NCBI GenBank assembly: GCA_000002445.1
Contig: CP000069.1
Span: 608,001 to 672,000 of the forward strand
Length of the DNA stretch: 64,000 bases
From: Trypanosoma brucei
Lineage: Eukaryota
Reading direction: 5' to 3'
The translations under genes were made by a program, and so were the position numbers. Positions 3,676 to 15,937 of the stretch are shown piece after piece. Position 1 is the stretch's first letter; every line of letters starts with the position of its first letter. The notes under the pieces were generated by a model that ran no database searches, was not told where the DNA came from, and worked only from the letters and a program-made list of their open reading frames with translations.

Positions 3676-5268
3676 CTAGTAACGGTCCCGCCTCTTCCTC
3701 ACCCTAAGCCTTTTCATGTAGTCGAAAGACCCCAAACATACAAACAATAAAATGATGAAAACATTACTAAAAAGTAACACTGAATAGCCTTTCCCCTTTC
3801 CCCCAGCGTGATCTGATCGGACCTCCTTCGAGTTGCCGCGCGCACCTCCGTCCCCTTTTCCCTTACCGCTGCTCTCCACATTCCGCCCAACATTTGCATC
3901 CTTCGACGCAGGGTCGACTTCATTCAAATCATCGTTGCTTTCCATGAGCCCCACTGCTTTGGGATCCCATAGGTACCTTTGCTTCAGAAAACCCGTCACA
4001 TGTGCCTCAATAAAATTTCCGGCACCATCATAGCACTCGGTGCACGCCTCCAGTGTGGGAAACTGTCGCTTCGGTACTAGCGGGTCCGCACCATCCTTTA
4101 CGTTGGCCAGTCGCGCATTCACATTATTGTGCGCACGCCACAGTTGCAGTACAGGGTCTTCGTTGGGGCTGAAGTTAAACTGGATGAAGTGGTCCCGACA
4201 CTCCTTGCACGAGAAGAAATAACGTATATAATTCTGTATCACCTCAAGGACATTCCTATCCGCCGGTGTGTTTACTGTTAGTGCGTGCAAAAGGAGCCAC
4301 ATCCCACATGGGAAACCGCGGTACTGCGGAGATGAACCCCGGCATGTCCGCCACCGGACGTTACGTGGCGAGCCATCAAACGGAATACCGGACTTCACCA
4401 CAGCATCTTGCCATGATGCGACTGTGAATGGTCTTTCCGCGGTAATAGATTCAAGGGCGCTAACAACACCGTCAGCCCCTATAGAAGGAAGCGAGTCTTT
4501 CACAAGCAACACAAAATCTTCAAGTGCAGTTAGCCGCTCGCGTGGTTCCGTACCTACCAGAGAAACATCATAGTGCATTGCGGAGAAGAAAGCGCCGGCA
4601 ATATCTGTGGCATATAGTTCTGTTGTCTCAACAAACCTCCCTGATTCATCCGTAGAAGAAACAGAACGCTTCACCAACTCCTCTTTGGATGTATAAAGTT
4701 TGAAATGCATGTCTATGCATCGCTCCTTTAAGGAATCATCTACCACCATGTGTTTGTTAACTAGCCGTCGCACTTCCGACTCCAGTTCATCAACTTCCAA
4801 GTGACTGTTTTCAAATGCAACATGCTCTAATGAGGAGGTGCCGCACTCCTCGTTGCTCCTGCATGAGTCACGTGGGTAAAAGAAAAATAATCGTGGAACA
4901 AAGTTGATGTCATACTTACGGCACAGATCCACTTCACTAGCGCAATTCACAGCAGCTGCTGTGGCGATCTGAAGTGCATCCTTTCCATGCTCCACCTTCA
5001 ACCCTCCAGCAAATTTGGAGAAAGTTGAAGCGTACCGTCGGCAAGCGCCGCAGCCATCGTTATAAAAAAGAACAATCCAAGGACAGAGAGGCGCAACACG
5101 ATGAACACGAGAAAAATCATCACCCGATAGATCCACTACCGACGAATCTAAATGAAATAGACCCGGACGAGGACTGCCCGTGGCTACTTGGGCGACTGAT
5201 TTAGAAAGACAACAGCATAACAAACCTGCAAAGACTACAAATGATCGAGAGAACATTCTCCACGACAA
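3676..5268 (-). CDS. QSOX: Quiescin sulfhydryl oxidase (QSOX), a thioredoxin domain fused to an Erv/ALR FAD-dependent sulfhydryl oxidase domain
   Basis: 530-aa ORF. N-terminal signal peptide 'MSWRMFSRSFVVFAGLLCCCLS'. Thioredoxin-like CxxC in 'FYNDGCGACRRYAS'. Erv/ALR core 'FPCGMWLLLHALTV' plus a second CxxC in 'FFSCKECRDHF'. C-terminal hydrophobic anchor 'VLLFSNVFIILLFVCLGSF'. This is the architecture of kinetoplastid QSOX. Confidence 0.8.
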   Translation of the reverse strand: MSWRMFSRSFVVFAGLLCCCLSKSVAQVATGSPRPGLFHLDSSVVDLSGDDFSRVHRVAPLCPWIVLFYNDGCGACRRYASTFSKFAGGLKVEHGKDALQIATAAAVNCASEVDLCRKYDINFVPRLFFFYPRDSCRSNEECGTSSLEHVAFENSHLEVDELESEVRRLVNKHMVVDDSLKERCIDMHFKLYTSKEELVKRSVSSTDESGRFVETTELYATDIAGAFFSAMHYDVSLVGTEPRERLTALEDFVLLVKDSLPSIGADGVVSALESITAERPFTVASWQDAVVKSGIPFDGSPRNVRWRTCRGSSPQYRGFPCGMWLLLHALTVNTPADRNVLEVIQNYIRYFFSCKECRDHFIQFNFSPNEDPVLQLWRAHNNVNARLANVKDGADPLVPKRQFPTLEACTECYDGAGNFIEAHVTGFLKQRYLWDPKAVGLMESNDDLNEVDPASKDANVGRNVESSGKGKGDGGARGNSKEVRSDHAGGKGKGYSVLLFSNVFIILLFVCLGSFDYMKRLRVRKRRDRY

Positions 5269-5400: not shown

Positions 5401-6389
5401 CATCATCATGCTCATTATATAATGCAAAGAAAGGGGGAAGATATCAGTCCCGTGCTTATGATAGGTAGCTTAGTGCACGGATGCCTAATTCATTTGAAAA
5501 TAATACAAATGCCTCGATTGTTAGCATCATCTGCACATACACTCAAATATATATATACACACACACACAAACCATCAGAATGTTATGGATGTAAAGTTGC
5601 ATCTAACCTCAATGGGTATCCTGTGGAGCGGCATCGATAAGTACAGTCGCCAAGGGACCTTTAATAATGAGGTGTAAATGTATTCACTCCACTCTCCCAC
5701 AGGCAAGTCCGTCACATGGACAATCAGCGTGTCCCGCAACGGTGCAACCCGCGGTACACAGTAAACAATAACAAACGTCGACGCGTACACCTCAGCGTTT
5801 CCTCTCATCAACAACATGATCAGGTGTATAATTAAATAACAACATCATTGGCGCCGCAATTCAGTTTCAATAAGTGTCGATAAAGTTGCAACCGCAAATT
5901 CATCACGATCACGCACAGTGTAAATGGTCATATGAAGGAAGACTAGATAGAAAAAGGGAATTGAGATAAATCACACACACGAAGATGGAGCCCACAATAA
6001 CTATATGAGCTCTCGCGGGTCCGATTGAGGCCGTCACAGCACCAAAGAGTTACCGCCGCCGCCTCACCCACGGGGCTCGCTCAGATAAGATAACACACGC
6101 ACACACATATATATTTATATATATGTAACTGGGTATGCAGGTGATAATAGCAGAAACAGATATGGTGGTGGTTTTTCTCAACTCTCGGGTAGCACAGGTG
6201 CAGACGCAGTGATTGACGTAAGCAAAACGCCTGTGTTTTCGCTAGCCTTCAGCGTACTATGGCAAAAAAAAAAAGCAATCATCATTCGCCTCCAAGGTAG
6301 TGTATAGCATAAACATGGCACGGGTAAAGTGACTATTGGAGAAACAAAAGAAAAGTAAGTGAATAAAAGCGAGGGAGGGGGGAATATAG

Positions 6390-6490
6390 TAGAGTCAGTG
6401 AATCCTTGTATGAAGGCATCGTCGCAGTTCTTCTGTCATTGCATTTTTCAGATACCACAGGAATTGCACGTATGATCATCATGCTCATTA
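6390..6490 (-). ncRNA. Candidate box C/D snoRNA
   Basis: Minus-strand perfect C box AUGAUGA (plus 6477-6483), D' CUGA (plus 6449-6452), D CUGA (plus 6395-6398). A further perfect AUGAUGA (plus 7352-7358, D' at 7322-7325) in the same unit has no clean D partner. No RUGAUGA motif occurs on the plus strand of the unit, which supports the strand bias. Confidence 0.2.
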
Positions 6491-6509
6491 TATAATGCAA
6501 AGAGAGGGG

Positions 6510-6610
6510 GAAGATATCAGTCCCGTGCTTATGATAGGTAGCTTAGTGCACGGATGCCTAATTCATTTGAAAATCATACAAATGCCTCGATTGTTAGCAT
6601 CATCTGCACA
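6510..6610 (-). ncRNA. Candidate box C/D snoRNA
   Basis: Minus-strand C-like box GAUGAUG (plus 6596-6602) and D box CUGA (plus 6517-6520) about 76 nt apart. Confidence 0.2.
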
Positions 6611-6789
6611 TACACTCAAATATATATATATACACACACACAAACCATCAGAATGTTATGGATGTAAAGTTGCATCTAACCTCAATGGGTATCCTGTGGA
6701 GCGGCATCGATAAGTACAGTCGCCAAGGGACCTTTAATAATGAGGTGTAAATGTATTCACTCCACTCTCCCACAGGCAAGTCCGTCACA

Positions 6790-6882
6790 TGGACAATCAG
6801 CGTGTCCCGCAACGGTGCAACCCGCGGTACACAGTAAACAATAACAAACGTCGACGCGTACACCTCAGCGTTTCCTCTCATC
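6790..6882 (-). ncRNA. Candidate box C/D snoRNA immediately downstream of the previous one
   Basis: Minus-strand C-like box UUGAUGA (plus 6868-6874) and D box CUGA (plus 6797-6800) about 68 nt apart; a possible D' at plus 6855-6858. Confidence 0.2.
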
Positions 6883-6884
6883 AA

Positions 6885-6990
6885 CAACATGATCAGGTGT
6901 ATAATTAAATAACAACATCATTGGCGCCGCAATTCAGTTTCAATAAGTGTCGATAAAGTTGCAACCGCAAATTCATCACGATCACGCACA
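6885..6990 (-). ncRNA. Candidate box C/D snoRNA with full C-D'-C'-D architecture (one per repeat unit, recurring every about 1072 bp)
   Basis: Read on the minus strand: C box GUGAUGA (plus 6973-6979 'tcatcac'), D' CUGA (plus 6934-6937), C' AUGAUGU (plus 6915-6921), D CUGA (plus 6893-6896). Spacings of 35, 12 and 18 nt are compatible with 10-21-nt guide regions upstream of D' and D. I could not verify a terminal stem. Confidence 0.3.
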
Positions 6991-9900
6991 GTGTAAATGG
7001 TCATGTGAAGGAAGACTAGATAGAAAAAGGGAATTGAGATAAATCACACACACGAAGATGGAGCCCACAATAACTATATGAGCTCTCGCGGGTCCGATTG
7101 AGGCCGTCACAGCACCAAAGAGTTACCGCCGCCGCCTCACCCACGGGGCTCGCTCAGATAAGATAACACACGCACACACATATATATTTATATATATGTA
7201 ATTGGGTATGCAGGTGATAATAGCAGAAACAGATATGGTGGTGGTTTTTCTCAACTCTCGGGTAGCACAGGTGCAAACGCAGTGATTGACGTAAGCAAAA
7301 CGCCTGTGTTTTCGCTAGCCTTCAGCGTACTATGGCAGAAAAAAAAAGCAATCATCATTCGCCTCCAAGGTAGTGTATAGCATAAACATGGCACGGGTAA
7401 AGTGACTATTGAAGAAACAAAAGAAAAGTAAGTGAATAAAAGCGAGGGAGGGGGGAATATAGTAGAGTCAGTAAATCCTTGTATGAAGGCATCGTCGCAG
7501 TTCTTCTGTCATTGCATTTTTCAGATACCACAGGAATTGCACGTATGATCATCATGCTCATTATATAATGCAAAGAGAGGGGGAAGATATCAGTCCCGTG
7601 CTTATGATAGGTAGCTTAGTGCACGGATGCCTAATTCATTTGAAAATCATACAAATGCCTCGATTGTTAGCATCATCTGCACATACACTCAAATATATAT
7701 ATACACACACACACAAACCATCAGAATGTTATGGATGTAAAGTTGCATCTAACCTCAATGGGTATCCTGTGGAGCGGCATCGATAAGTACAGTCGCCAAG
7801 GGACCTTTAATAATGAGGTGTAAATGTATTCACTCCACTCTCCCACAGGCAAGTCCGTCACATGGACAATCAGCGTGTCCCGCAACGGTGCAACCCGCGG
7901 TACACAGTAAACAATAACAAACGTCGACGCGTACACCTCAGCGTTTCCTCTCATCAACAACATGATCAGGTGTATAATTAAATAACAACATCATTGGCGC
8001 CGCAATTCAGTTTCAATAAGTGTCGATAAAGTTGCAACCGCAAATTCATCACGATCACGCACAGTGTAAATGGTCATGTGAAGGAAGACTAGATAGAAAA
8101 AGGGAATTGAGATAAATCACACACACGAAGATGGAGCCCACAATAACTATATGAGCTCTCGCGGGTCCGATTGAGGCCGTCACAGCACCAAAGAGTTACC
8201 GCCGCCGCCTCACCCACGGGGCTCGCTCAGATAAGATAACACACGCACACACATATATATTTATATATATGTAATTGGGTATGCAGGTGATAATAGCAGA
8301 AACAGATATGGTGGTGGTTTTTCTCAACTCTCGGGTAGCACAGGTGCAGACGCAGTGATTGACGTAAGCAAAACGCCTGTGTTTTCGCTAGCCTTCAGCG
8401 TACTATGGCAGAAAAAAAAAGCAATCATCATTCGCCTCCAAGGTAGTGTATAGCATAAACATGGCACGGGTAAAGTGACTATTGAAGAAACAAAAGAAAA
8501 GTAAGTGAATAAAAGCGAGGGAGGGGGGAATATAGTAGAGTCAGTAAATCCTTGTATGAAGGCATCGTCGCAGTTCTTCTGTCATTGCATTTTTCAGATA
8601 CCACAGGAATTGCACGTATGATCATCATGCTCATTATATAATGCAAAGAAAGGGGGAAGATATCAGTCCCGTGCTTATGATAGGTAGCTTAGTGCACGGA
8701 TGCCTAATTCATTTGAAAATCATACAAATGCCTCGATTGTTAGCATCATCTGCACATACACTCAAATATATATACACACACACACAAACCATCAGAATGT
8801 TATGGATGTAAAGTTGCATCTAACCTCAATGGGTATCCTGTGGAGCGGCATCGATAAGTACAGTCGCCAAGGGACCTTTAATAATGAGGTGTAAATGTAT
8901 TCACTCCACTCTTCCACAGGCAAGTCCGTCACATGGACAATCAGCGTGTCCCGCAACGGTGCAACCCGCGGTACACAGTAAACAATAACAAACGTCGACG
9001 CGTACACCTCAGCGTTTCCTCTCATCAACAACATGATCAGGTGTATAATTAAATAACAACATCATTGGCGCCGCAATTCAGTTTCAATAAGTGTCGATAA
9101 AGTTGCAACCGCAAATTCATCACGATCACGCACAGTGTAAATGGTCATATGAAGGAAGAATAGATAGAAAAAGGGAATTGAGATATATCACACACACGAA
9201 GATGGAGCCCACAATAACTATATGAGCTCTCGCGGGTCCGATTGAGGCCGTCACAGCACCAAAGAGTTACCGCCGCCGCCTCACCCACGGGGCTCGCTCA
9301 GATAAGATAACACACGCACACACATATATATTTATATATATGTAACTGGGTATGCAGGTGATAATAGCAGAAACAGATATGGTGGTGGTTTTTCTCAACT
9401 CTCGGGTAGCACAGGTGCAGACGCAGTGATTGACGTAAGCAAAACGCCTGTGTTTTCGCTAGCCTTCAGCGTACTATGGCAGAAAAAAAAAGCAATCATC
9501 ATTCGCCTCCAAGGTAGTGTATAGCATAAACATGGCACGGGTAAAGTGACTATTGGAGAAACAAAAGAAAAGTAAGTGAATAAAAGCGAGGGAGGGGGGA
9601 ATATAGTAGAGTCAGTAAATCCTTGTATGAAGGCATCGTCGCAGTTCTTCTGTCATTGCATTTTTCAGATACCACAGGAATTGCACGTATGATCATCATG
9701 CTCATTATATAATGCAAAGAAAGGGGGAAGATATCAGTCCCGTGCTTATGATAGGTAGCTTAGTGCACGGATGCCTAATTCATTTGAAAATCATACAAAT
9801 GCCTCGATTGTTAGCATCATCTGCACATACACTCAAATATATATACACACACACACAAACCATCAGAATGTTATGGATGTAAAGTTGCATCTAACCTCAA

Positions 9901-11566
9901 TGGGTATCCTGTGGAGCGGCATCGATAAGTACAGTCGCCAAGGGACCTTTAATAATGAGGTGTAAATGTATTCACTCCACTCTCCCACAGGCAAGTCCGT
10001 CACATGGACAATCAGCGTGTCCCGCAACGGTGCAACCCGCGGTACACAGTAAACAATAACAAACGTCGACGCGTACACCTCAGCGTTTCCTCTCATCAAC
10101 AACATGATCAGGTGTATAATTAAATAACAACATCATTGGCGCCGCAATTCAGTTTCAATAAGTGTCGATAAAGTTGCAACCGCAAATTCATCACGATCAC
10201 GCACAGTGTAAATGGTCATATGAAGGAAGAATAGATAGAAAAAGGGAATTGAGATATATCACACACACGAAGATGGAGCCCACAATAACTATATGAGCTC
10301 TCGCGGGTCCGATTGAGGCCGTCACAGCACCAAAGAGTTACCGCCGCCGCCTCACCCACGGGGCTCGCTCAGATAAGATAACACACGCACACACATATAT
10401 ATTTATATATATGTAACTGGGTATGCAGGTGATAATAGCAGAAACAGATATGGTGGTGGTTTTTCTCAACTCTCGGGTAGCACAGGTGCAGACGCAGTGA
10501 TTGACGTAAGCAAAACGCCTGTGTTTTCGCTAGCCTTCAGCGTACTATGGCAGAAAAAAAAAAGCAATCATCATTCGCCTCCAAGGTAGTGTATAGCATA
10601 AACATGGCACGGGTAAAGTGACTATTGGAGAAACAAAAGAAAAGTAAGTGAATAAAAGCGAGGGAGGGGGGAATATAGTAGAGTCAGTGAATCCTTGTAT
10701 GAAGGCATCGTCGCAGTTCTTCTGTCATTGCATTTTTCAGATACCACAGGAATTGCACGTATGATCATCATGCTCATTATATAATGCAAAGAAAGGGGGA
10801 AGATATCAGTCCCGTGCTTATGATAGGTAGCTTAGTGCACGGATGCCTAATTCATTTGAAAATCATACAAATGCCTCGATTGTTAGCATCATCTGCACAT
10901 ACACTCAAATATATATATACACACACACACAAACCATCAGAATGTTATGGATGTAAAGTTGCATCTAACCTCAATGGGTATCCTGTGGAGCGGCATCGAT
11001 AAGTACAGTCGCCAAGGAACCTTTAATAATGAGGTGTAAATGTATTCACTCCACTCTCCCACAGGCAAGTCCGTCACATGGACAATCAGCGTGTCCCGCA
11101 ACGGTGCAACCCGCGGTACACAGTAAACAATAACAAACGTCGACGCGTACATTCCTTTTTTTGTGTTCTACACGTTTTTTTAAGGCATGTCATTAAAACT
11201 TTTTTTCTTGTTGTAAATTTCAGTAACTATGTACTTTTTCTTCTTATTCTGTTGTCTTTCCTCATGGTGTTTTTTTAGGTTTGTTAACTTAGTTGTTGTA
11301 AAGGCATTCCTTGTTTTGTGCTCCTTTATTTATTACTTCATTTGTTTATTTTAAAATGCTTGTTCAAGTGGTGGAGAAAAGGTTTGTTATGAGCTCTTCT
11401 GCCTTTGGGTTGGTGGGTGCTTGTTATTTCTTCCAATGTTGTGTTTTAATATCTCCGATTATTATTGTAACGATAAAGCACCCATTTTTCACCAACGCGT
11501 TGATTCATGCGCTGTCGCGGTTTTGTAAAATTAGTCAGTGATGGACGATGCTTGGCTGAATTGTTC

Positions 11567-12595
11567 CTATGCTACAACGTCTGATTCGTCGGCACCCATA
11601 GATGTTACATCGGAGGAAAGTTGCTCTAATTCTGTCACCTTGTCCTCGACGAAACTATGAACACATTCATCCAACTGCTGGTGGAGTTCGCGTGATGCGG
11701 TCTCATCGATTCCTGATTCCTGAAGAGCTCTCGACGCTTGTGTGCGGACCTGCTTTACTTTGTTTTTGAAAGACGACACGACAAGTTGTATTTCTTCCAC
11801 CGCTTTCTGTCGCCGTGCTGTCGTTATAGGTGGCATTGTGATTTTTATCTTCTGTTGCTCCTTGGAGACCTGCAGGGTCCCGTCAAACCGTGTAACTCTC
11901 TGTAAAATAGGCGAGGCAAAGCTTACATTTTGTGGCACTACTTCCATTGTAGCGGCGCCCGTCTTCAAAACCTGGGCCACTTTAGTGAGAAGCACTTTGC
12001 GCCCCCCGCCCACATCCACATCCAACTGTTCCAAACATTTTGCCATATTCAACACCTTCATGGCGCTCACGTTCGCCCGCTCAAAGTGGTGTTGAAAAAC
12101 TTGCTCCAATTCCTCCGGCACGTCTTCGCTGACGACTGTCTCAGCTTCTTGCAGTAAGTTCTCCTTTTCCGCCTTTTGCTCCCGTGACTTTCCCGACCGT
12201 CGCTCCGATCGTTCCTCGAACGTAAGCCGTCGAGACTCTCCACGGTCACCGCGCCGCACATCCTTCAAGCGTTGAATTGTGGAATTGAAGGGAAACGATC
12301 CAACGAGTCGCAAGGCGGTGAGTTGCTGGTGGTGCCGTGCAATATTCCACCACCGTATCGAGCCGGCTGCAGCTAGCAGCATCCGACGCATGCTTACTGC
12401 GCTGGAGTCACCACACAAGGACGGTATATTAAAAAGGCAAAGGGGGAATAAATTGGAAGACTTGTGTGAAAAGTGCAGTAAATACGTTCCTGCTCCTATC
12501 CATATAGACCACACGATAGACAATGAAGTAGAAGTGTCTGTCGTGTGATCTATATGGCGCTGACTTCCTCGAAGCCCATACACACAACTAAACAT
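11567..12595 (-). CDS. Probable mitochondrial ribosome recycling factor (RRF/frr-like); the true start is probably the internal ATG at about 12391
   Basis: The C-terminal 180 aa follow the RRF pattern: 'LDVDVGGGRKVLLTKVAQVLKTGAATMEVVPQN' (cf. RRF L-D-x-I-x-V-x-Y-Y-G...L-x-I-x-P) and 'ITMPPITTARRQKAVEEIQLVVSSFKNKVKQVRTQASRALQE...ETASRELHQQLDECVHSFVEDKVTEL' (cf. RRF 'P-x-L-T-E-E-R-R-K-E-L-V-K...R-N-x-R-R-D...K-x-x-Q-x-L-T-D'). Met69 begins 'MRRMLLAAAGSIRWWNIARHH', a presequence-like basic amphipathic stretch. The first 68 aa are cysteine/tryptophan-rich and atypical. A purine-rich plus stretch (pyrimidine-rich on minus) lies just upstream of 12391. Confidence 0.5.
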   Translation of the reverse strand: MFSCVYGLRGSQRHIDHTTDTSTSLSIVWSIWIGAGTYLLHFSHKSSNLFPLCLFNIPSLCGDSSAVSMRRMLLAAAGSIRWWNIARHHQQLTALRLVGSFPFNSTIQRLKDVRRGDRGESRRLTFEERSERRSGKSREQKAEKENLLQEAETVVSEDVPEELEQVFQHHFERANVSAMKVLNMAKCLEQLDVDVGGGRKVLLTKVAQVLKTGAATMEVVPQNVSFASPILQRVTRFDGTLQVSKEQQKIKITMPPITTARRQKAVEEIQLVVSSFKNKVKQVRTQASRALQESGIDETASRELHQQLDECVHSFVEDKVTELEQLSSDVTSMGADESDVVA

Positions 12596-13754
12596 TTACG
12601 CCATTCTTAATGTTACCTCTTTCGCATCGCAAAGTGTTAGTCGCGCACTGGGTGTGTTGTGGTCCACTGTGTTTTTTTTTTCTCTCTACAACCCGCCGGA
12701 AAAACTGTGGCTCTGCTTGCGATTATATCTCGCTCGCGCTTCCACAAGCATAGCCCAAGTATGTACCTTACTTGGCCCACGCACGTACATACAAATAAAT
12801 TAATATATAAATATATATATATGTGTGTGTGGGAGACGTTCCTCTTTGATTTGTTTTTTTTTCCTTGTTCCATAGCTCTCTCATCTCCACATATTTTCAC
12901 CCTCCCCTCCGCTGCCCTGTCACGTTCCTCCCACGAGAACCAAAAGGGACGTAAATGCTAACATCTCTACAGTTGTGCAAACGACCCTTGTTATTTCCGA
13001 GTGGAGTGATGTGTGCGGCAGTGGCAGAATGCGAAAGGAGAGTAAAGGAAAATGAGTATCAGTCAAGTACGATAATTACGCCTTTGTCTCGGGTTCATTT
13101 TTTTTTAAAAAAAAGTTAAATTTCTTTCTTTTTTCCCCTGGTGAAGACTCTTTTTCATTCCTTCTACCCATCCCATTGATCCTGGCGTTTATACTTGTTG
13201 ACGACCTGCTTCATGATTTCCCATATTAGTAATTTTTATTCACGTTCCTTTTGTTGTTACGATTGTGCTTTTCCTCCCCTTTTCTGTCCACTTTCCCTTC
13301 CCTTCCCATAAGCCTCACATGCAAACTCTCACAACGTTAACTTTCCCGTACTGCCTCAGTTTGTGCGCGCGAGTTGAAAAGTGGATGTAAAGAATGAGAA
13401 ACGGGTGAAAAACAGAGGGAGAACACTAATGCACGTTTCTCCAACGCTTCTCCTTTACCCCTCTCAACACACGGTTACACCACAAATTCTCGCAAAGCGT
13501 CAAAAAGATGAAAAAGACGCAACTTCACAAACGCACCAATTACGCCCTCGTCAGACGTCGTGACACAGTGAAAGACAGACTGCCGCTGGGGTCCTATCTA
13601 CTCCCTCGAGACGCTTTACGACATGCACGGGCGCGGCTATGTTGTATGAACGAAGCACCTGAGAAGACGGGAAGCATAAAAACCACTAACCAAAATAAAT
13701 GAGTGATGGTGTTGGCCGCCTCCTCCACAAGTAACAAAACGCACGCCCTCACGC

Positions 13755-15044
13755 TCACCAAAGCCGACGATTGCCTCTATTTTTCTTCTCCTTCACAGCC
13801 AAGGCCGCCGCATTCGTGGCGGCCCTCTCCTGTGCGACGGAATGTGGAATGTAAGGAACCTGAAATGCATCCCCTAGAAACTTGTGCAGCAGCTCACTGA
13901 TGTCGCTCATCAGCTCTGAAGTCTGCTCTGTGACCCATACTTCCAACATGAAAGCAGCCGCTCGCACCTTCAGGGCAATACCGTTGACACTGTTGCGCAC
14001 TGACCTTGACCAGGACTCCCCAACAGTGCGGCAAAGAAGATGCAACCAAGCATCGTCAACCACTTGAGGCCTTACCTTCGCCCTCACAATACCGCCATCA
14101 CGATTCCTCAGATCTTCCCACTTTGGATTGATACCATCGCGGAAGAGGTACAACGTCCCAGCGCACATACGTGTTGGCTCCGGAATATTGTTGAAGACTT
14201 TCCAGAAGGAAGAGATGCAGTCCATACGAAAAACGAGCGTGGGGTCATAAGTACTTTCCCTCGTGCTGTCGGGCCCACCAACTGGAAGGTAGAAGAGACA
14301 CCAGGGGTCACCAAATCTCATATCACCAGAGTCGGGAGTGAGGGTAAAAGGCGAGGGTTTCGTCATGTTGGAGCGGTTCAGCGTGCGGCGCGGCAAAAAA
14401 GCCGGCGCCGAGGCTTTCAATGAGCTGCACCTGCTAATTTCTAATACCTCCTCATCCGTTTTGTCGACACTGATCTCCGCCACAATAGGCGTTGACCCGG
14501 CCTTGGGAACTGGCGATGTTGCCGACCGCACGCCATTACTTTTCGTACATGTAGTAACCCAACTGGAGGTAGAGGGAGAACCGCTTTGCTGTTTCCGCTG
14601 CAACTCCTTCTCTACCGCAAGGTCTGCAGTTGATGTTGGCAGTGGCATAAGTGAGCCGGCCGCTGCACCCCGTGGTACGTAACTTACTGCATTAGGGCTC
14701 ATGTGAAATGCCGCCGAAGGCGCATGCACGGGACTCATTCGAGTGGGTATTACATGAGTTGAAACGGGGCTACGTGTAGGCGGGGGCACCACTGTTTGCT
14801 GTTGCTGCCCTTGTGGGGGACACGACGGAGATTGAGGAGTTGTCGCCTGTGCAGAAAACCCACTATGTGTTGTGATGGTGTTAGTGGATGTCATGGAAGT
14901 TGTGAACCCAGTCTTGGGGGTAGGCAACGTAGCGCGAGCCGGTAGAGTAGTCGGTGTGGGTGCAGTTACAGCCACCGCCGACGATCTTTTCTGCCATGAC
15001 GGAGTGTACTCCACCGCATCAGCACGTAAATTTTGCATCAACAC
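13755..15044 (-). CDS. EIF4E4: Translation initiation factor eIF4E homologue with a long (about 240 aa) Pro/Thr/Ser/Gln-rich N-terminal extension (kinetoplastid group-2 EIF4E3/EIF4E4 type)
   Basis: The C-terminal about 190 aa carry the eIF4E cap-binding fold signature: 'DPWCLFYLP', 'FWKVFNNIPEPTRMCAGTLYLFRDGINPKWEDLRNRDGGIVRAKV', 'WLHLLCRTVGESW'. The N-terminus is low-complexity. My assignment to EIF4E4 rather than EIF4E3 rests on its position next to AspRS and is unverified. Confidence 0.75.
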   Translation of the reverse strand: MLMQNLRADAVEYTPSWQKRSSAVAVTAPTPTTLPARATLPTPKTGFTTSMTSTNTITTHSGFSAQATTPQSPSCPPQGQQQQTVVPPPTRSPVSTHVIPTRMSPVHAPSAAFHMSPNAVSYVPRGAAAGSLMPLPTSTADLAVEKELQRKQQSGSPSTSSWVTTCTKSNGVRSATSPVPKAGSTPIVAEISVDKTDEEVLEISRCSSLKASAPAFLPRRTLNRSNMTKPSPFTLTPDSGDMRFGDPWCLFYLPVGGPDSTRESTYDPTLVFRMDCISSFWKVFNNIPEPTRMCAGTLYLFRDGINPKWEDLRNRDGGIVRAKVRPQVVDDAWLHLLCRTVGESWSRSVRNSVNGIALKVRAAAFMLEVWVTEQTSELMSDISELLHKFLGDAFQVPYIPHSVAQERAATNAAALAVKEKKNRGNRRLW

Positions 15045-15132
15045 TGCCGATCAGATGAAGGTCACTACCAGCCTCCTCACCGGTACTAGTATACGACGGC
15101 TTAGTTCGTTCCTACGTAAACAAACGTACGGC

Positions 15133-15139
15133 ACGCCAC

Positions 15140-15172
<33 letters not shown>
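15133..15172. repeat. (TA)n microsatellite
   Basis: Run 'tatatatatatatatatatatatatatata' in the spacer between eIF4E and AspRS. Confidence 0.9.
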
Positions 15173-15179
<7 letters not shown>

Positions 15180-15937
15180 GTTTTGTTTACAACTCCACAC
15201 AGTATATCCGTCGCGCTCACCTTTTACTTGCCTGGCGTACACGCCACTTTGTTTAACCTTTTTTATTTATTCTCGTTTACCTCTTCTAAGAGACACACAC
15301 AATACCTCCCGTATACTGGAGTTGCTGATGTGACCCTTAAAACAGTTCGTGATACAATTACCACAGTTAATATTATTTACTTCGTATTCTTATTATTGCT
15401 TTCGTTTCCTCCGCTTATACACACGAGTGCCCCTTGGTAGTTTCGTTTCGTTCACGTGGGCTACTTGAAATTCTTCAAACGAAACAAAAAGAAAGAGGAG
15501 GATAATACCAGTATAATCTGCCTAACCACCCCTTTACTTGGTCAGTTTAATGCTATTACACAGCCTCCCACGCTGACCCTTCACGGTAATGAGATAAAAA
15601 TGTAATAAGAAAAAGAGAAAGTGGGGCAAAGAAAAAAAATAGTTCAACGCTGCAGCAGTTCCACAGGGCGGTCCGGAGAAAATGAGCGATCGCACCATCG
15701 ATAACAGGGGGAAAATAGTTCATATATATATAGACACGGGGATAGGATGAAGGTGTTCATCACTACCATCGCTCTCCTCTTTTCAAAGACCTAATCGGTA
15801 ATTATTAATTAATGCTTTCCCATCTGTTACGGACAAACAATCGTACCATCCGTCAAAATAACAACACCAGAGAGAAGGAAAAAAACAAGGCACAAACACG
15901 AAACTCGGATAATTTCTTTCCTCTGCCCTTCACTTCA

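What the first reader, a model, noticed from the sequence alone, without database searches (positions are those of the whole stretch)
5402..11150. 1.07-kb unit repeated about 5.4 times in tandem, with strand-biased box C/D snoRNA signatures: a snoRNA gene cluster embedded in the polycistron
Six near-identical copies (more than 98% identity, period 1071-1074 bp) fill the spacer between QSOX and the RRF-like gene. The unit has stops in every frame, so it is not coding. Perfect or near-perfect C boxes (AUGAUGA, GUGAUGA, GAUGAUG, UUGAUGA, AUGAUGU) occur five or six times per unit on the minus strand and never on the plus strand. Each has a CUGA D or D' box 25-95 nt downstream. One locus (plus 6893-6979) shows the complete C-D'-C'-D order with guide-length spacers. 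This is the same strand as every flanking gene, consistent with processing from the polycistronic pre-mRNA. Tandemly reiterated clusters of about 1 kb carrying several C/D (and single-hairpin H/ACA) snoRNAs are how trypanosomatids organise snoRNA genes. The exact snoRNA ends, any H/ACA-like members, the rRNA/snRNA 2'-O-methylation targets and the true copy number (tandem arrays are often collapsed in assemblies) cannot be read off here and deserve a second look.
Basis: partly seen in the sequence, partly recalled or inferred. Interest (0 to 1): 0.7.

Follow-up and report, generated by a model that had tools for sequence, protein, structure and literature searches.

The report
Known T. brucei TB6Cs1 snoRNA cluster

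Summary
Window 5402-11151 is five full units (1071-1074 bp, 98.9-100% identical) plus 388 bp. It lies between QSOX and an RRF-domain gene, inside a gene cluster where every long ORF is on the minus strand.

The interpretation also holds, and the locus is already described. Rfam places TB6Cs1H1, H3 and H4 on the minus strand of every unit at 82-94 bits. A published TB6Cs1H3 primer matches the window exactly.

Each unit carries seven snoRNAs: three box C/D and four single-hairpin, AGA-box H/ACA-like. I retrieved kinetoplastid-like rRNA genes from metagenomes with a published T. brucei LSU primer. On these, the three C/D guides pair so that the fifth nucleotide from D/D' falls on LSU-beta A545, A400 and the second C of UACCACAGG. 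These are the published targets of TB6Cs1C3, C2 and C1. The H3 pocket matches the SSU 530 loop.

snoRNA segments are conserved in T. vivax, T. cruzi, T. grayi and Leishmania. The spacers are not.

- There are three C/D genes per unit, not five or six.
- The "complete" C-D'-C'-D locus at 6893-6979 fuses an element absent from T. vivax with the 5' half of C2.
- Motif enrichment alone is only modest (p about 0.02).

Novelty: already known.

The parts
5402..11151 (-). Tandem array: 5 full units of 1071-1074 bp plus a 388-bp partial unit. In RNA sense it begins 3 nt after a C2 D box (11151) and ends at the C box of a truncated C1 (5402-5410).
7466..7555 (-). Box C/D snoRNA, TB6Cs1C1 by target (C AUGAUGA, D' CUGA, C' AUGACA, D CUGA). 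Reference copy; ends approximate. Other copies: 10682-10771, 9610-9699, 8539-8628, 6393-6482.
   Evidence: The D' guide CCUGUGGUA pairs with LSU UACCACAGG, and the 5th nt falls on the 2nd C. The guide is invariant in L. major and Leptomonas. Copies.
7256..7321 (-). H/ACA-like snoRNA TB6Cs1H1 (single hairpin, AGA box). Other copies: 10471-10536, 9400-9465, 8329-8394, 6183-6248.
   Evidence: Rfam RF01546, 81.9-86.5 bits against a gathering score of 40. Hairpin and pocket strands are conserved in T. cruzi, T. vivax and T. grayi.
7082..7155 (-). H/ACA-like snoRNA, inferred to be TB6Cs1H2 (single hairpin, AGA box near the 3' end). Other copies: 10297-10370, 9226-9299, 8155-8228, 6009-6082.
   Evidence: No Rfam family matches it. 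Conserved at 78% in T. cruzi and T. vivax. RNAalifold gives a consensus hairpin with a conserved AGA. All 5 copies are identical, and there are 0 differences from T. b. gambiense.
6927..6989 (-). Element (i): a C/D-like motif pair (GUGAUGA ... CUGA, 46 nt apart) directly 5' of C2. It is not among the seven TB6Cs1 names in the published table I could read. Other copies: 10142-10204, 9071-9133, 8000-8062, 5854-5916.
   Evidence: Absent from T. vivax. No significant rRNA complementarity. 0/63 differences from T. b. gambiense.
6860..6926 (-). Box C/D snoRNA, TB6Cs1C2 by target (C AUGAUGU at 6921, D' CUGA at 6896, C' UGAUGA at 6883, D CUGA at 6868). Other copies: 10075-10141, 9004-9070, 7933-7999, 5787-5853.
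   Evidence: The guide UUAAUUAUACA pairs with LSU-beta 397-407 in 12 rRNA loci, and the 5th nt falls on A400. Boxes and guide are conserved in T. vivax. Weak full-length SNORD36 match, 25.5 bits, below the gathering score of 30.
6766..6828 (-). H/ACA-like snoRNA TB6Cs1H3. Other copies: 11055-11117, 9981-10043, 8910-8972 (G>A variant at 8913), 7839-7901, 5693-5755.
   Evidence: Rfam RF01547, 82.5-83.9 bits against 40. The pocket matches SSU GCAAGUC-U-G-GUGCC in 10 loci. The published primer is an exact match at 8907-8926.
6675..6747 (-). H/ACA-like snoRNA TB6Cs1H4. Other copies: 10964-11036 (C>T at 11018), 9890-9962, 8819-8891, 7748-7820, 5602-5674.
   Evidence: Rfam RF01548, 89.9-93.9 bits against 60. 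Conserved in T. vivax.
7588..7676 (-). Box C/D snoRNA, TB6Cs1C3 by target (C AUGAUGC, D'-like AUGA, D CUGA, with an internal CCGUGC/GCACGG hairpin before D). Other copies: 10804-10892, 9732-9820, 8661-8749, 6515-6603, 5442-5530 (G>T in the D'-like box at 5502).
   Evidence: The guide CGAGGCAUUUG pairs with LSU-beta 542-552 in 18 of 19 rRNA loci, and the 5th nt from AUGA falls on A545. 78-86% conserved in T. cruzi and T. vivax, with boxes and guide invariant.
7322..7358 (-). Short AUGAUGA...CUGA motif pair abutting H1, repeated in each unit. Probably not a gene.
   Evidence: Only 37 nt long. Its boxes are not conserved in T. cruzi, T. vivax or T. grayi.
7692..7720 (-). (UG)n(UA)n microsatellite in the spacer after H4, with length differences between copies.
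3676..5268 (-). Downstream flanking gene: QSOX (thioredoxin, pseudo-Erv and Erv1/Alr domains). The listed ORF starts at an upstream TTG, so the true start is probably an internal ATG.
11567..12595 (-). Upstream flanking gene: protein with a ribosome-recycling-factor domain, 98% identical to the T. b. gambiense DAL972 protein.

Best explanation
The array is the TB6Cs1 snoRNA gene cluster of Trypanosoma brucei.

Each 1.07-kb unit encodes seven small nucleolar RNAs on the minus strand. In RNA sense the order is C1, H1, H2, C2, H3, H4, C3.

Proposed mechanism, taken from the literature (inferred here, not shown by my results): the array is transcribed by RNA polymerase II as part of the long minus-strand polycistron that also carries IF4E, RRF, QSOX and DAGK. 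The individual snoRNAs are then cut and trimmed out of the precursor.

The three box C/D RNAs assemble with the methyltransferase complex and direct 2'-O-methylation of LSU rRNA at the nucleotide paired to the fifth guide position upstream of D or D':
- C1 directs the second C of UACCACAGG, published as LSU-beta Cm1264.
- C2 directs LSU-beta Am400.
- C3 directs LSU-beta Am544/545. Published work also gives C3 a role in trypanosome-specific rRNA processing 3' of LSU-beta.

The four single-hairpin, AGA-box H/ACA-like RNAs direct pseudouridylation. H3 acts in the SSU 530-loop region; H1, H2 and H4 act in the 3' part of LSU according to published Psi-seq.

Tandem reiteration gives 38 gene copies in this window and raises dosage. 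C1 and C3 are among the most abundant T. brucei snoRNAs in published RNA-seq.

Shown here: the repeat, the family membership, the box anatomy, guide-target complementarity on related rRNAs, and selective conservation. Taken from the literature: expression, modification mapping, RNAi phenotypes and the mode of transcription and processing.
For: - Rfam gathering-level hits to TB6Cs1H1, H3 and H4 in every unit, all on the minus strand; the same families hit the syntenic T. b. gambiense locus, and H1 hits T. cruzi.
- The published TB6Cs1H3 primer is an exact match at 8907-8926 and has one mismatch in the other five copies.
- rRNA loci were fetched with a published T. brucei LSU-beta 579-603 primer sequence, so they are independent of the snoRNAs.
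- On those loci the C3 guide pairs with LSU-beta 542-552 in 18 of 19 loci, the C2 guide with 397-407 in 12 loci, and the C1 guide with UACCACAGG in 11 loci at relative positions 1098-1255.
- The nucleotide at guide position 5 is A545, A400 and C respectively. This matches the published table: C3 Am544/545, C2 Am400, C1 Cm1264.
- The H3 pocket matches SSU in 10 loci, against a shuffled-pocket maximum of 3. Published work assigns H3 to SSU.
- blastn conservation in T. cruzi, T. vivax, T. grayi, L. major and Leptomonas falls on the snoRNA segments only. Boxes and guides are invariant in the alignments.
- Against T. b. gambiense there are 5 differences in 522 nt of snoRNA and 51 in 451 nt of spacer, Fisher p=7e-13.
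- All 22 ORFs of at least 300 aa in the window are on the minus strand.
- Literature: RNA-seq of the TB6Cs1 cluster and the C3 RNAi phenotype (PMC3273796); RPKM values for all seven members (PMC6411936 supplement); clusters transcribed polycistronically by Pol II (PMC3273796).
Against: - No T. brucei rRNA sequence was available, so guide-target pairing was tested on related, kinetoplastid-like metagenomic rRNA genes. The C1 target coordinate (1199-1255 in the kinetoplastid-like loci, 1098 and 1166 in the two loci that differ from the rest) agrees with the published 1264 only approximately.
- Pocket-target matches for H1, H2 and H4 could not be established.
- Thermodynamic folding of the individual RNAs is not better than shuffles. 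This is usual for short guide RNAs.
- The serial order in one published table (C1, H1, H2, C2, C3, H3, H4) differs from the genomic order I infer from targets (C1, H1, H2, C2, H3, H4, C3). My assignment of the C names therefore rests on targets, not on a published map.
- The original description (Liang et al. 2005, PMC1370750) could not be read.
Confidence: 0.97

Rival explanations
1. One reading: the unit is essentially a box C/D cluster with five or six C/D snoRNAs, including a complete C-D'-C'-D snoRNA at plus 6893-6979.
For: Seven TGATG-containing C-like motifs and ten CUGA per unit, all on the minus strand. The span 6893-6979 does show GUGAUGA-CUGA-AUGAUG-CUGA in order, with a possible flanking UGAUC/GAUCA pairing.
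Against: - Four of the seven conserved RNAs are H/ACA-like.
- T. vivax lacks the GUGAUGA...CUGA half. It keeps AUGAUG, the guide, CUGA, a C'-like box and CUGA, corresponding to 6926-6860.
- The full-length SNORD36 model alignment covers the same 67 nt.
- The UGAUC/GAUCA pairing would use the GA of the D box.
- The 37-nt pair 5' of H1 is not conserved.
Confidence: 0.08
2. Each unit encodes an eighth stable RNA: element (i) at 6989-6927 is an unannotated orphan C/D-like snoRNA present in T. brucei and absent from T. vivax.
For: It has a canonical GUGAUGA and a CUGA 46 nt apart. It is identical in all five copies and in T. b. gambiense (0/63 differences), whereas spacers differ at about 4-11% of positions.
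Against: - Absent from T. vivax.
- No terminal stem.
- No rRNA complementarity above the null: score 12 against a null of 10.9 +/- 1.5.
- The neighbouring short spacers sp5 and sp6 also show 0 differences, so the low divergence may be regional.
- Not among the seven TB6Cs1 names in the 2019 expression table.
Confidence: 0.2
3. A non-functional tandem (satellite-like) repeat whose C/D-like motifs arise by chance from strand-asymmetric composition.
For: Motif enrichment over shuffles is only modest (p 0.014-0.09). The near-identity of the copies means the motifs are not independent observations.
Against: - Rfam covariance-model hits at E of 1e-16 to 1e-19.
- Cross-genus conservation limited to the RNA segments.
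- Guide-target matches at published modification sites.
- Published expression and RNAi data.
Confidence: 0.01

Closest known systems
TB6Cs1 snoRNA cluster of Trypanosoma brucei chromosome 6 (Liang et al. 2005, RNA 11:619; Michaeli et al. 2012, PMC3273796)
   Same: It is this locus. Three Rfam families built from it hit every unit. A published H3 primer matches exactly. The seven-member composition (C1-C3, H1-H4) and the modification targets agree.
   Different: Nothing of substance. The copy number here is 5.36 units. Small copy variants exist (H3 G>A at 8913, H4 C>T at 11018, C3 G>T at 5502, C1 T/C two nt upstream of the D box). The member order inferred from targets differs from the serial order in one published table.
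Other trypanosomatid reiterated snoRNA clusters (T. brucei TB9Cs2, TB10Cs1 and others; Leptomonas collosoma and Leishmania major clusters)
   Same: Tandem units of about 0.5-1 kb interspersing C/D and single-hairpin AGA-box H/ACA-like genes, transcribed polycistronically. The syntenic L. major spacer holds a 458-bp repeat with a C1 homologue.
   Different: Membership differs by species at this locus:
- T. cruzi has H1-H2-C3 only, followed by a GP63 gene.
- T. vivax has H1-H2-C2-H3-H4-C3.
- L. major has C1 plus a second C/D and a possible H/ACA.
Canonical eukaryotic box C/D and H/ACA guide snoRNAs (for example the SNORD36 family)
   Same: Same guide rule (fifth nucleotide upstream of D/D'), same boxes, and targets in the conserved LSU core.
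   Different: The H/ACA members are single hairpins with AGA instead of double hairpins with H and ACA boxes. The genes are tandemly repeated inside a protein-coding polycistron rather than intronic or independently transcribed. The SNORD36 match is below the gathering score (25.5 against 30 bits), so no membership is claimed.

Membership tests
TB6Cs1 cluster (Rfam RF01546 TB6Cs1H1, RF01547 TB6Cs1H3, RF01548 TB6Cs1H4) | Covariance-model score at or above the curated gathering score, over the full model length | tested here: met
   H1 81.9-86.5 bits against 40 (5 copies). H3 82.5-83.9 against 40 (6 copies). H4 89.9-93.9 against 60 (6 copies). All cover the full model on the minus strand.
TB6Cs1 cluster | Sequence identity with published T. 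brucei reagents for the cluster | tested here: met
   The TB6Cs1H3 primer CACTCTTCCACAGGCAAGTC (PMC4855143 supplement) is exact at 8907-8926 and has 1 mismatch at the other five copies.
TB6Cs1 cluster | C/D members guide LSU-beta Am400 (C2), Am544/545 (C3) and Cm1264 (C1) | tested here: met
   Guide position 5 falls on A400, A545 and the second C of UACCACAGG on related rRNA genes. The coordinate of the C1 site is only approximately matched, because authentic T. brucei rRNA was not available.
TB6Cs1 cluster | Members detected as stable small RNAs | not testable with these tools
   Published RPKM values exist for all seven members (PMC6411936 supplement), and the cluster's read profile is Fig. 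3A of PMC3273796. No read data were available here.
Box C/D snoRNA | C box (RUGAUGA) near the 5' end and D box (CUGA) near the 3' end, with internal D'/C' | tested here: met
   C1 has AUGAUGA/CUGA/AUGACA/CUGA. C2 has AUGAUGU/CUGA/UGAUGA/CUGA. C3 has AUGAUGC/AUGA (D'-like)/CUGA. The boxes are invariant across species.
Box C/D snoRNA | A guide of at least 10 nt directly upstream of D or D', complementary to the target RNA | tested here: met
   11-nt exact Watson-Crick matches for C2 and C3. For C1 a 9-nt exact core, extending to about 12 bp with one G-U pair. Each recurs at one rRNA position in 11-18 loci. A single tolerant duplex score was not discriminating on its own (null 10.9 +/- 1.5).
Box C/D snoRNA | Terminal stem bringing the C and D boxes together | tested here: inconclusive
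   Only short or irregular pairings were seen. Minimum-free-energy folds are not better than shuffles (z from -0.22 to +0.83).
Trypanosomatid H/ACA-like snoRNA | Single hairpin with an internal pocket and an AGA box about 3 nt from the 3' end | tested here: met
   Rfam structures for H1, H3 and H4. H2 has a consensus hairpin with a conserved AGA in three species. The H1 hairpin is kept in 6 sequences with one compensatory pair and invariant pocket strands.
Trypanosomatid H/ACA-like snoRNA | Bipartite pocket complementarity flanking a target U | tested here: inconclusive
   Met for H3: SSU GCAAGUC-U-G-GUGCC in 10 loci, with a null maximum of 3. No clean site was found for H1, H2 or H4 on the distant rRNAs. 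The sliding-register search suffered from multiple testing.

The most novel reading that the evidence does not exclude
Element (i) (6989-6927 and its four copies) is a GUGAUGA...CUGA unit directly 5' of C2. It is absent from T. vivax and is not one of the seven TB6Cs1 names in the published table I could read. It could be an unannotated orphan C/D-like RNA, or a lineage-specific 5' extension that affects C2 processing.
Probability: 0.2. Interest if true: 0.2.

Novelty: already known. Interest (0 to 1): 0.08.

Why it matters
It matters little as a discovery. The cluster, its members, their expression, their targets and the role of C3 in rRNA processing were published between 2005 and 2022.

It does show that the first-stage reader can recognise a snoRNA cluster from raw sequence. 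It also gives a clean, coordinate-level annotation of 38 snoRNA gene copies, which an annotation pipeline with Rfam alone would only half recover: C1, C2, C3 and H2 have no Rfam family.

Two minor points may be of use to specialists:
- Copy number is unresolved in at least one public assembly, which has an N gap inside the array.
- Some copies carry variants inside boxes or guides.

Tried and rejected
- TRF found nothing because its longest period is 500; I replaced it with blastn and the repeat finder.
- The original description (PMC1370750) is not held, and the PMC3273796 and PMC9283944 supplements hold no TB6Cs1 sequences.
- The window's RRF protein is not on record by exact sequence, so I used homologues instead.
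- A tolerant duplex score (G-U pairs plus one mismatch) for every CUGA-adjacent 20-mer did not separate real guides from shuffles (null 10.9 +/- 1.5). I replaced it with exact cores plus positional agreement across loci.
- A sliding-register pocket search for H1, H2 and H4 produced many multi-locus hits. Any chance hit in a conserved rRNA block is multiplied across loci, so I discarded the search as uninformative.
- Single-sequence folding z-scores are uninformative for these RNAs.
- I first assigned the names C1, C2 and C3 by position in the unit. I dropped that once the targets showed C/D-a is C3 and C/D-b is C1.
- I considered whether the roughly 30 nt upstream of H1 are conserved. The alignment shows only a T-rich tract.
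- Rfam at E<=1 finds nothing in the L. major syntenic repeat.

Full report
**1. Observation**

A unit taken from 6475-7547 matches the window at 5402-6474, 6475-7547, 7548-8620, 8621-9691 and 9692-10763. All five are full length and 98.9-100% identical. It also matches 10764-11151 (388 bp). That makes 5.36 tandem copies with periods of 1071-1074 bp. TRF was silent only because its period limit is 500.

Pfam confirms the flanks as QSOX (3676-5268, minus) and an RRF-domain protein (11567-12595, minus), with DAGK and IF4E beyond them. All 22 ORFs of at least 300 aa in the 64-kb window are on the minus strand. No ORF spans a unit, and the longest ORF wholly inside the array is 80 aa.

C-box-like and CUGA motifs occur only on the minus strand: RTGATGA 3 vs 0, TGATGA 4 vs 0 and CTGA 10 vs 0 per unit. 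Against 2000 dinucleotide shuffles this is only modestly unusual (p = 0.019, 0.025 and 0.086; C-then-D pairs p = 0.014). Motifs alone would therefore not have settled the matter.

**2. Identity**

Rfam at gathering threshold places three curated trypanosomatid families on the minus strand of every unit:
- TB6Cs1H4, six copies at 89.9-93.9 bits.
- TB6Cs1H3, six copies at 82.5-83.9 bits.
- TB6Cs1H1, five copies at 81.9-86.5 bits.

The RRF protein is 98% identical to that of T. b. gambiense DAL972. The published primer for TB6Cs1H3 (PMC4855143 supplement) matches exactly at 8907-8926 and has one mismatch in the other five copies.

The literature describes TB6Cs1 as a cluster with members C1, C2, C3, H1, H2, H3 and H4:
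- The cluster's RNA-seq profile is a published figure, and C3 depletion impairs processing downstream of LSU-beta (PMC3273796).
- All seven members have expression values, and C1 and C3 rank among the most abundant snoRNAs (PMC6411936 supplement).
- Nm targets are C1 LSU-beta 1264, C2 LSU-beta 400 and C3 LSU-beta 544/545 (PMC9283944).
- H3 acts on SSU, and H2, H4 and H1 act on the 3' part of LSU (PMC4855143 supplement).

**3. Anatomy of one unit**

Coordinates are for the fourth unit, read in RNA sense on the minus strand.

| Element | Coordinates | Features |
|---|---|---|
| C3 | 7676-7588 | C AUGAUGC, D'-like AUGA, D CUGA |
| C1 | 7555-7466 | AUGAUGA / CUGA / AUGACA / CUGA |
| Short motif pair | 7358-7322 | AUGAUGA...CUGA, 37 nt |
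| H1 | 7321-7256 | Rfam hit |
| H2 | 7155-7082 | No Rfam family |
| Element (i) | 6989-6927 | GUGAUGA...CUGA |
| C2 | 6926-6860 | AUGAUGU / CUGA / UGAUGA / CUGA |
| H3 | 6828-6766 | Rfam hit |
| H4 | 6747-6675 | Rfam hit |

Counting copies across the array gives C3, H3 and H4 six times each, and C1, C2, H1 and H2 five times each. That is 38 genes. In RNA sense the array starts 3 nt after a C2 D box (11151) and ends at the C box of a truncated C1 (5402-5410).

**4. Guide-target test**

The window contains no rRNA. I took a published T. brucei primer sequence, LSU-beta 579-603 (PMC6411936 supplement), and scanned the metagenome collection for it. This is independent of the snoRNAs. It returned 19 rRNA-bearing contigs, and most of them also contain a second published T. 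brucei LSU primer site in register.

An unbiased 11-mer antisense scan of the whole unit found two matches that recur at one rRNA position in many loci. A direct search for the target cores confirmed these and added a third.

| Guide | Pairs with | Loci | Nucleotide at guide position 5 |
|---|---|---|---|
| C3: CGAGGCAUUUG, followed by U then AUGA | LSU-beta 542-552 | 18 of 19 | A545 |
| C2: UUAAUUAUACA, followed by C then CUGA | LSU-beta 397-407 | 12 | A400 |
| C1 D' guide: CCUGUGGUA, followed by U then CUGA | UACCACAGG, at relative positions 1199-1255 in the kinetoplastid-like loci | 11 | second C |

These are the published targets of C3, C2 and C1, and I assigned the names on that basis.

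Using the pocket strands defined by the Rfam structure, H3 matches the SSU 530-loop sequence GCAAGUC-U-G-GUGCC in all 10 loci that include an SSU. Shuffled pockets never exceeded 3 loci. H1, H2 and H4 gave no clean site on these distant rRNAs.

**5. Comparative evidence**

The order IF4E-RRF-[spacer]-QSOX-DAGK is conserved in T. b. gambiense and L. major. blastn of one unit against the syntenic loci hits only the RNA segments:
- C3 in T. cruzi and T. vivax.
- C1 in L. major (three copies) and Leptomonas.
- H1 in T. cruzi, T. vivax and T. grayi.
- H2 in T. cruzi and T. vivax.
- C2, H3 and H4 in T. vivax.

Alignments show the boxes and guides to be invariant while other positions drift. H2 folds into a conserved single hairpin with an AGA box. 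H1 keeps its hairpin in six sequences, with one compensatory pair and invariant pocket strands.

Between this window and T. b. gambiense the seven snoRNAs differ at 5 of 522 positions and the spacers at 51 of 451 (Fisher p = 7e-13).

**6.

T. vivax lacks element (i). It keeps the full C-guide-D'-C'-D series corresponding to 6926-6860, and a full-length but sub-threshold SNORD36 alignment covers the same 67 nt. The 'complete' snoRNA at 6893-6979 is therefore most likely a fusion of element (i) with the 5' half of C2.

The 37-nt AUGAUGA...CUGA pair abutting H1 is not conserved. The unit is thus three C/D plus four H/ACA-like genes, not five or six C/D genes.

**7. Mechanism**

Shown here:
- The genes share the strand of the surrounding unidirectional gene cluster.
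- They carry the defining boxes and structures.
- Their guides fit known modification sites.
- They are under selective constraint.

Taken from the literature: Pol II polycistronic transcription, endo- and exonucleolytic release, snoRNP assembly, Nm and Psi formation, and the role of C3 in srRNA and LSU 3' processing.

**8. Verdict**

The only unexcluded novelty is element (i). It is identical in all copies and in T. b. gambiense, absent from T. vivax, without a detectable target, and not among the published names I could read. I give it a 20% probability of being a stable RNA.

Noticed in passing
L001:13615-13715 (T. b. gambiense DAL972, within the RRF-QSOX spacer 11030-15691): The syntenic array in this public assembly contains a run of 101 N. 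This produces an apparent 1.5-kb unit and a missing C2 copy. Copy number there is unresolved: 4 H3/H4/C3 sets and 3 H1/H2/C1 sets are visible.
   Followed up: yes
L005:10636-14200 (L. major, between RRF and QSOX): The syntenic spacer holds a different 458-bp tandem repeat (3 or more copies). Each unit has a C1 homologue, a second C/D-like gene (GUGAUGU...CUGA...UGAUGA...CUGA at about 11940-12040) and a possible AGA-ending hairpin. Rfam finds nothing there even at E<=1.
   Followed up: partly
L008:12069-14195, L006:7923-10073, L004:11033-13360: In T. cruzi, T. grayi and T. theileri a GP63 (Peptidase_M8) gene sits between RRF and QSOX. T. grayi has an H1 copy on each side of it (7505-7565 and 10738-10803). 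T. cruzi has only H1-H2-C3 before GP63. Cluster membership at this locus therefore turns over between species.
   Followed up: partly
window 5502; 8913; 11018; 10689 and 6400; 7276: Copy-specific variants lie inside the genes:
- The last C3 copy has G>T in the conserved D'-like AUGA box (5502).
- One H3 copy has G>A next to the AGA box (8913); this variant is the one the published primer matches.
- One H4 copy has C>T (11018).
- Two C1 copies have C instead of T two nt upstream of the D box (10689, 6400).
- One H1 copy differs in the upper stem (7276).
   Followed up: partly
window 7720-7692 and equivalents: A (TG)n(TA)n microsatellite follows each H4 and shows a 2-bp length difference between copies. 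A second TA/TG-rich tract lies between H1 and H2 (7199-7173).
   Followed up: no
window 7640-7593 (C3, and its copies): C3 has a conserved internal hairpin, CCGUGC...GCACGG, directly before its D box. The loop motif AGCUACCUA is invariant in T. cruzi and T. vivax. This might be the element that pairs with pre-rRNA spacer (ITS6) in the published processing role, but it could not be tested without T. brucei ITS sequence.
   Followed up: no
PMC6411936 supplementary table S2 compared with window unit order: The table's serial numbers list the members as C1, H1, H2, C2, C3, H3, H4. The order inferred here from guide targets is C1, H1, H2, C2, H3, H4, C3. Either the serial order is not genomic or my name assignment differs from the authors' map.
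   Followed up: no
window 5575-5817, 6648-6890, 7721-7963, 8792-9034, 9863-10105 (minus): An 80-aa ATG ORF recurs in each unit, overlapping H4, H3 and part of C2. It is most likely a mechanical by-product of the repeat.
   Followed up: no
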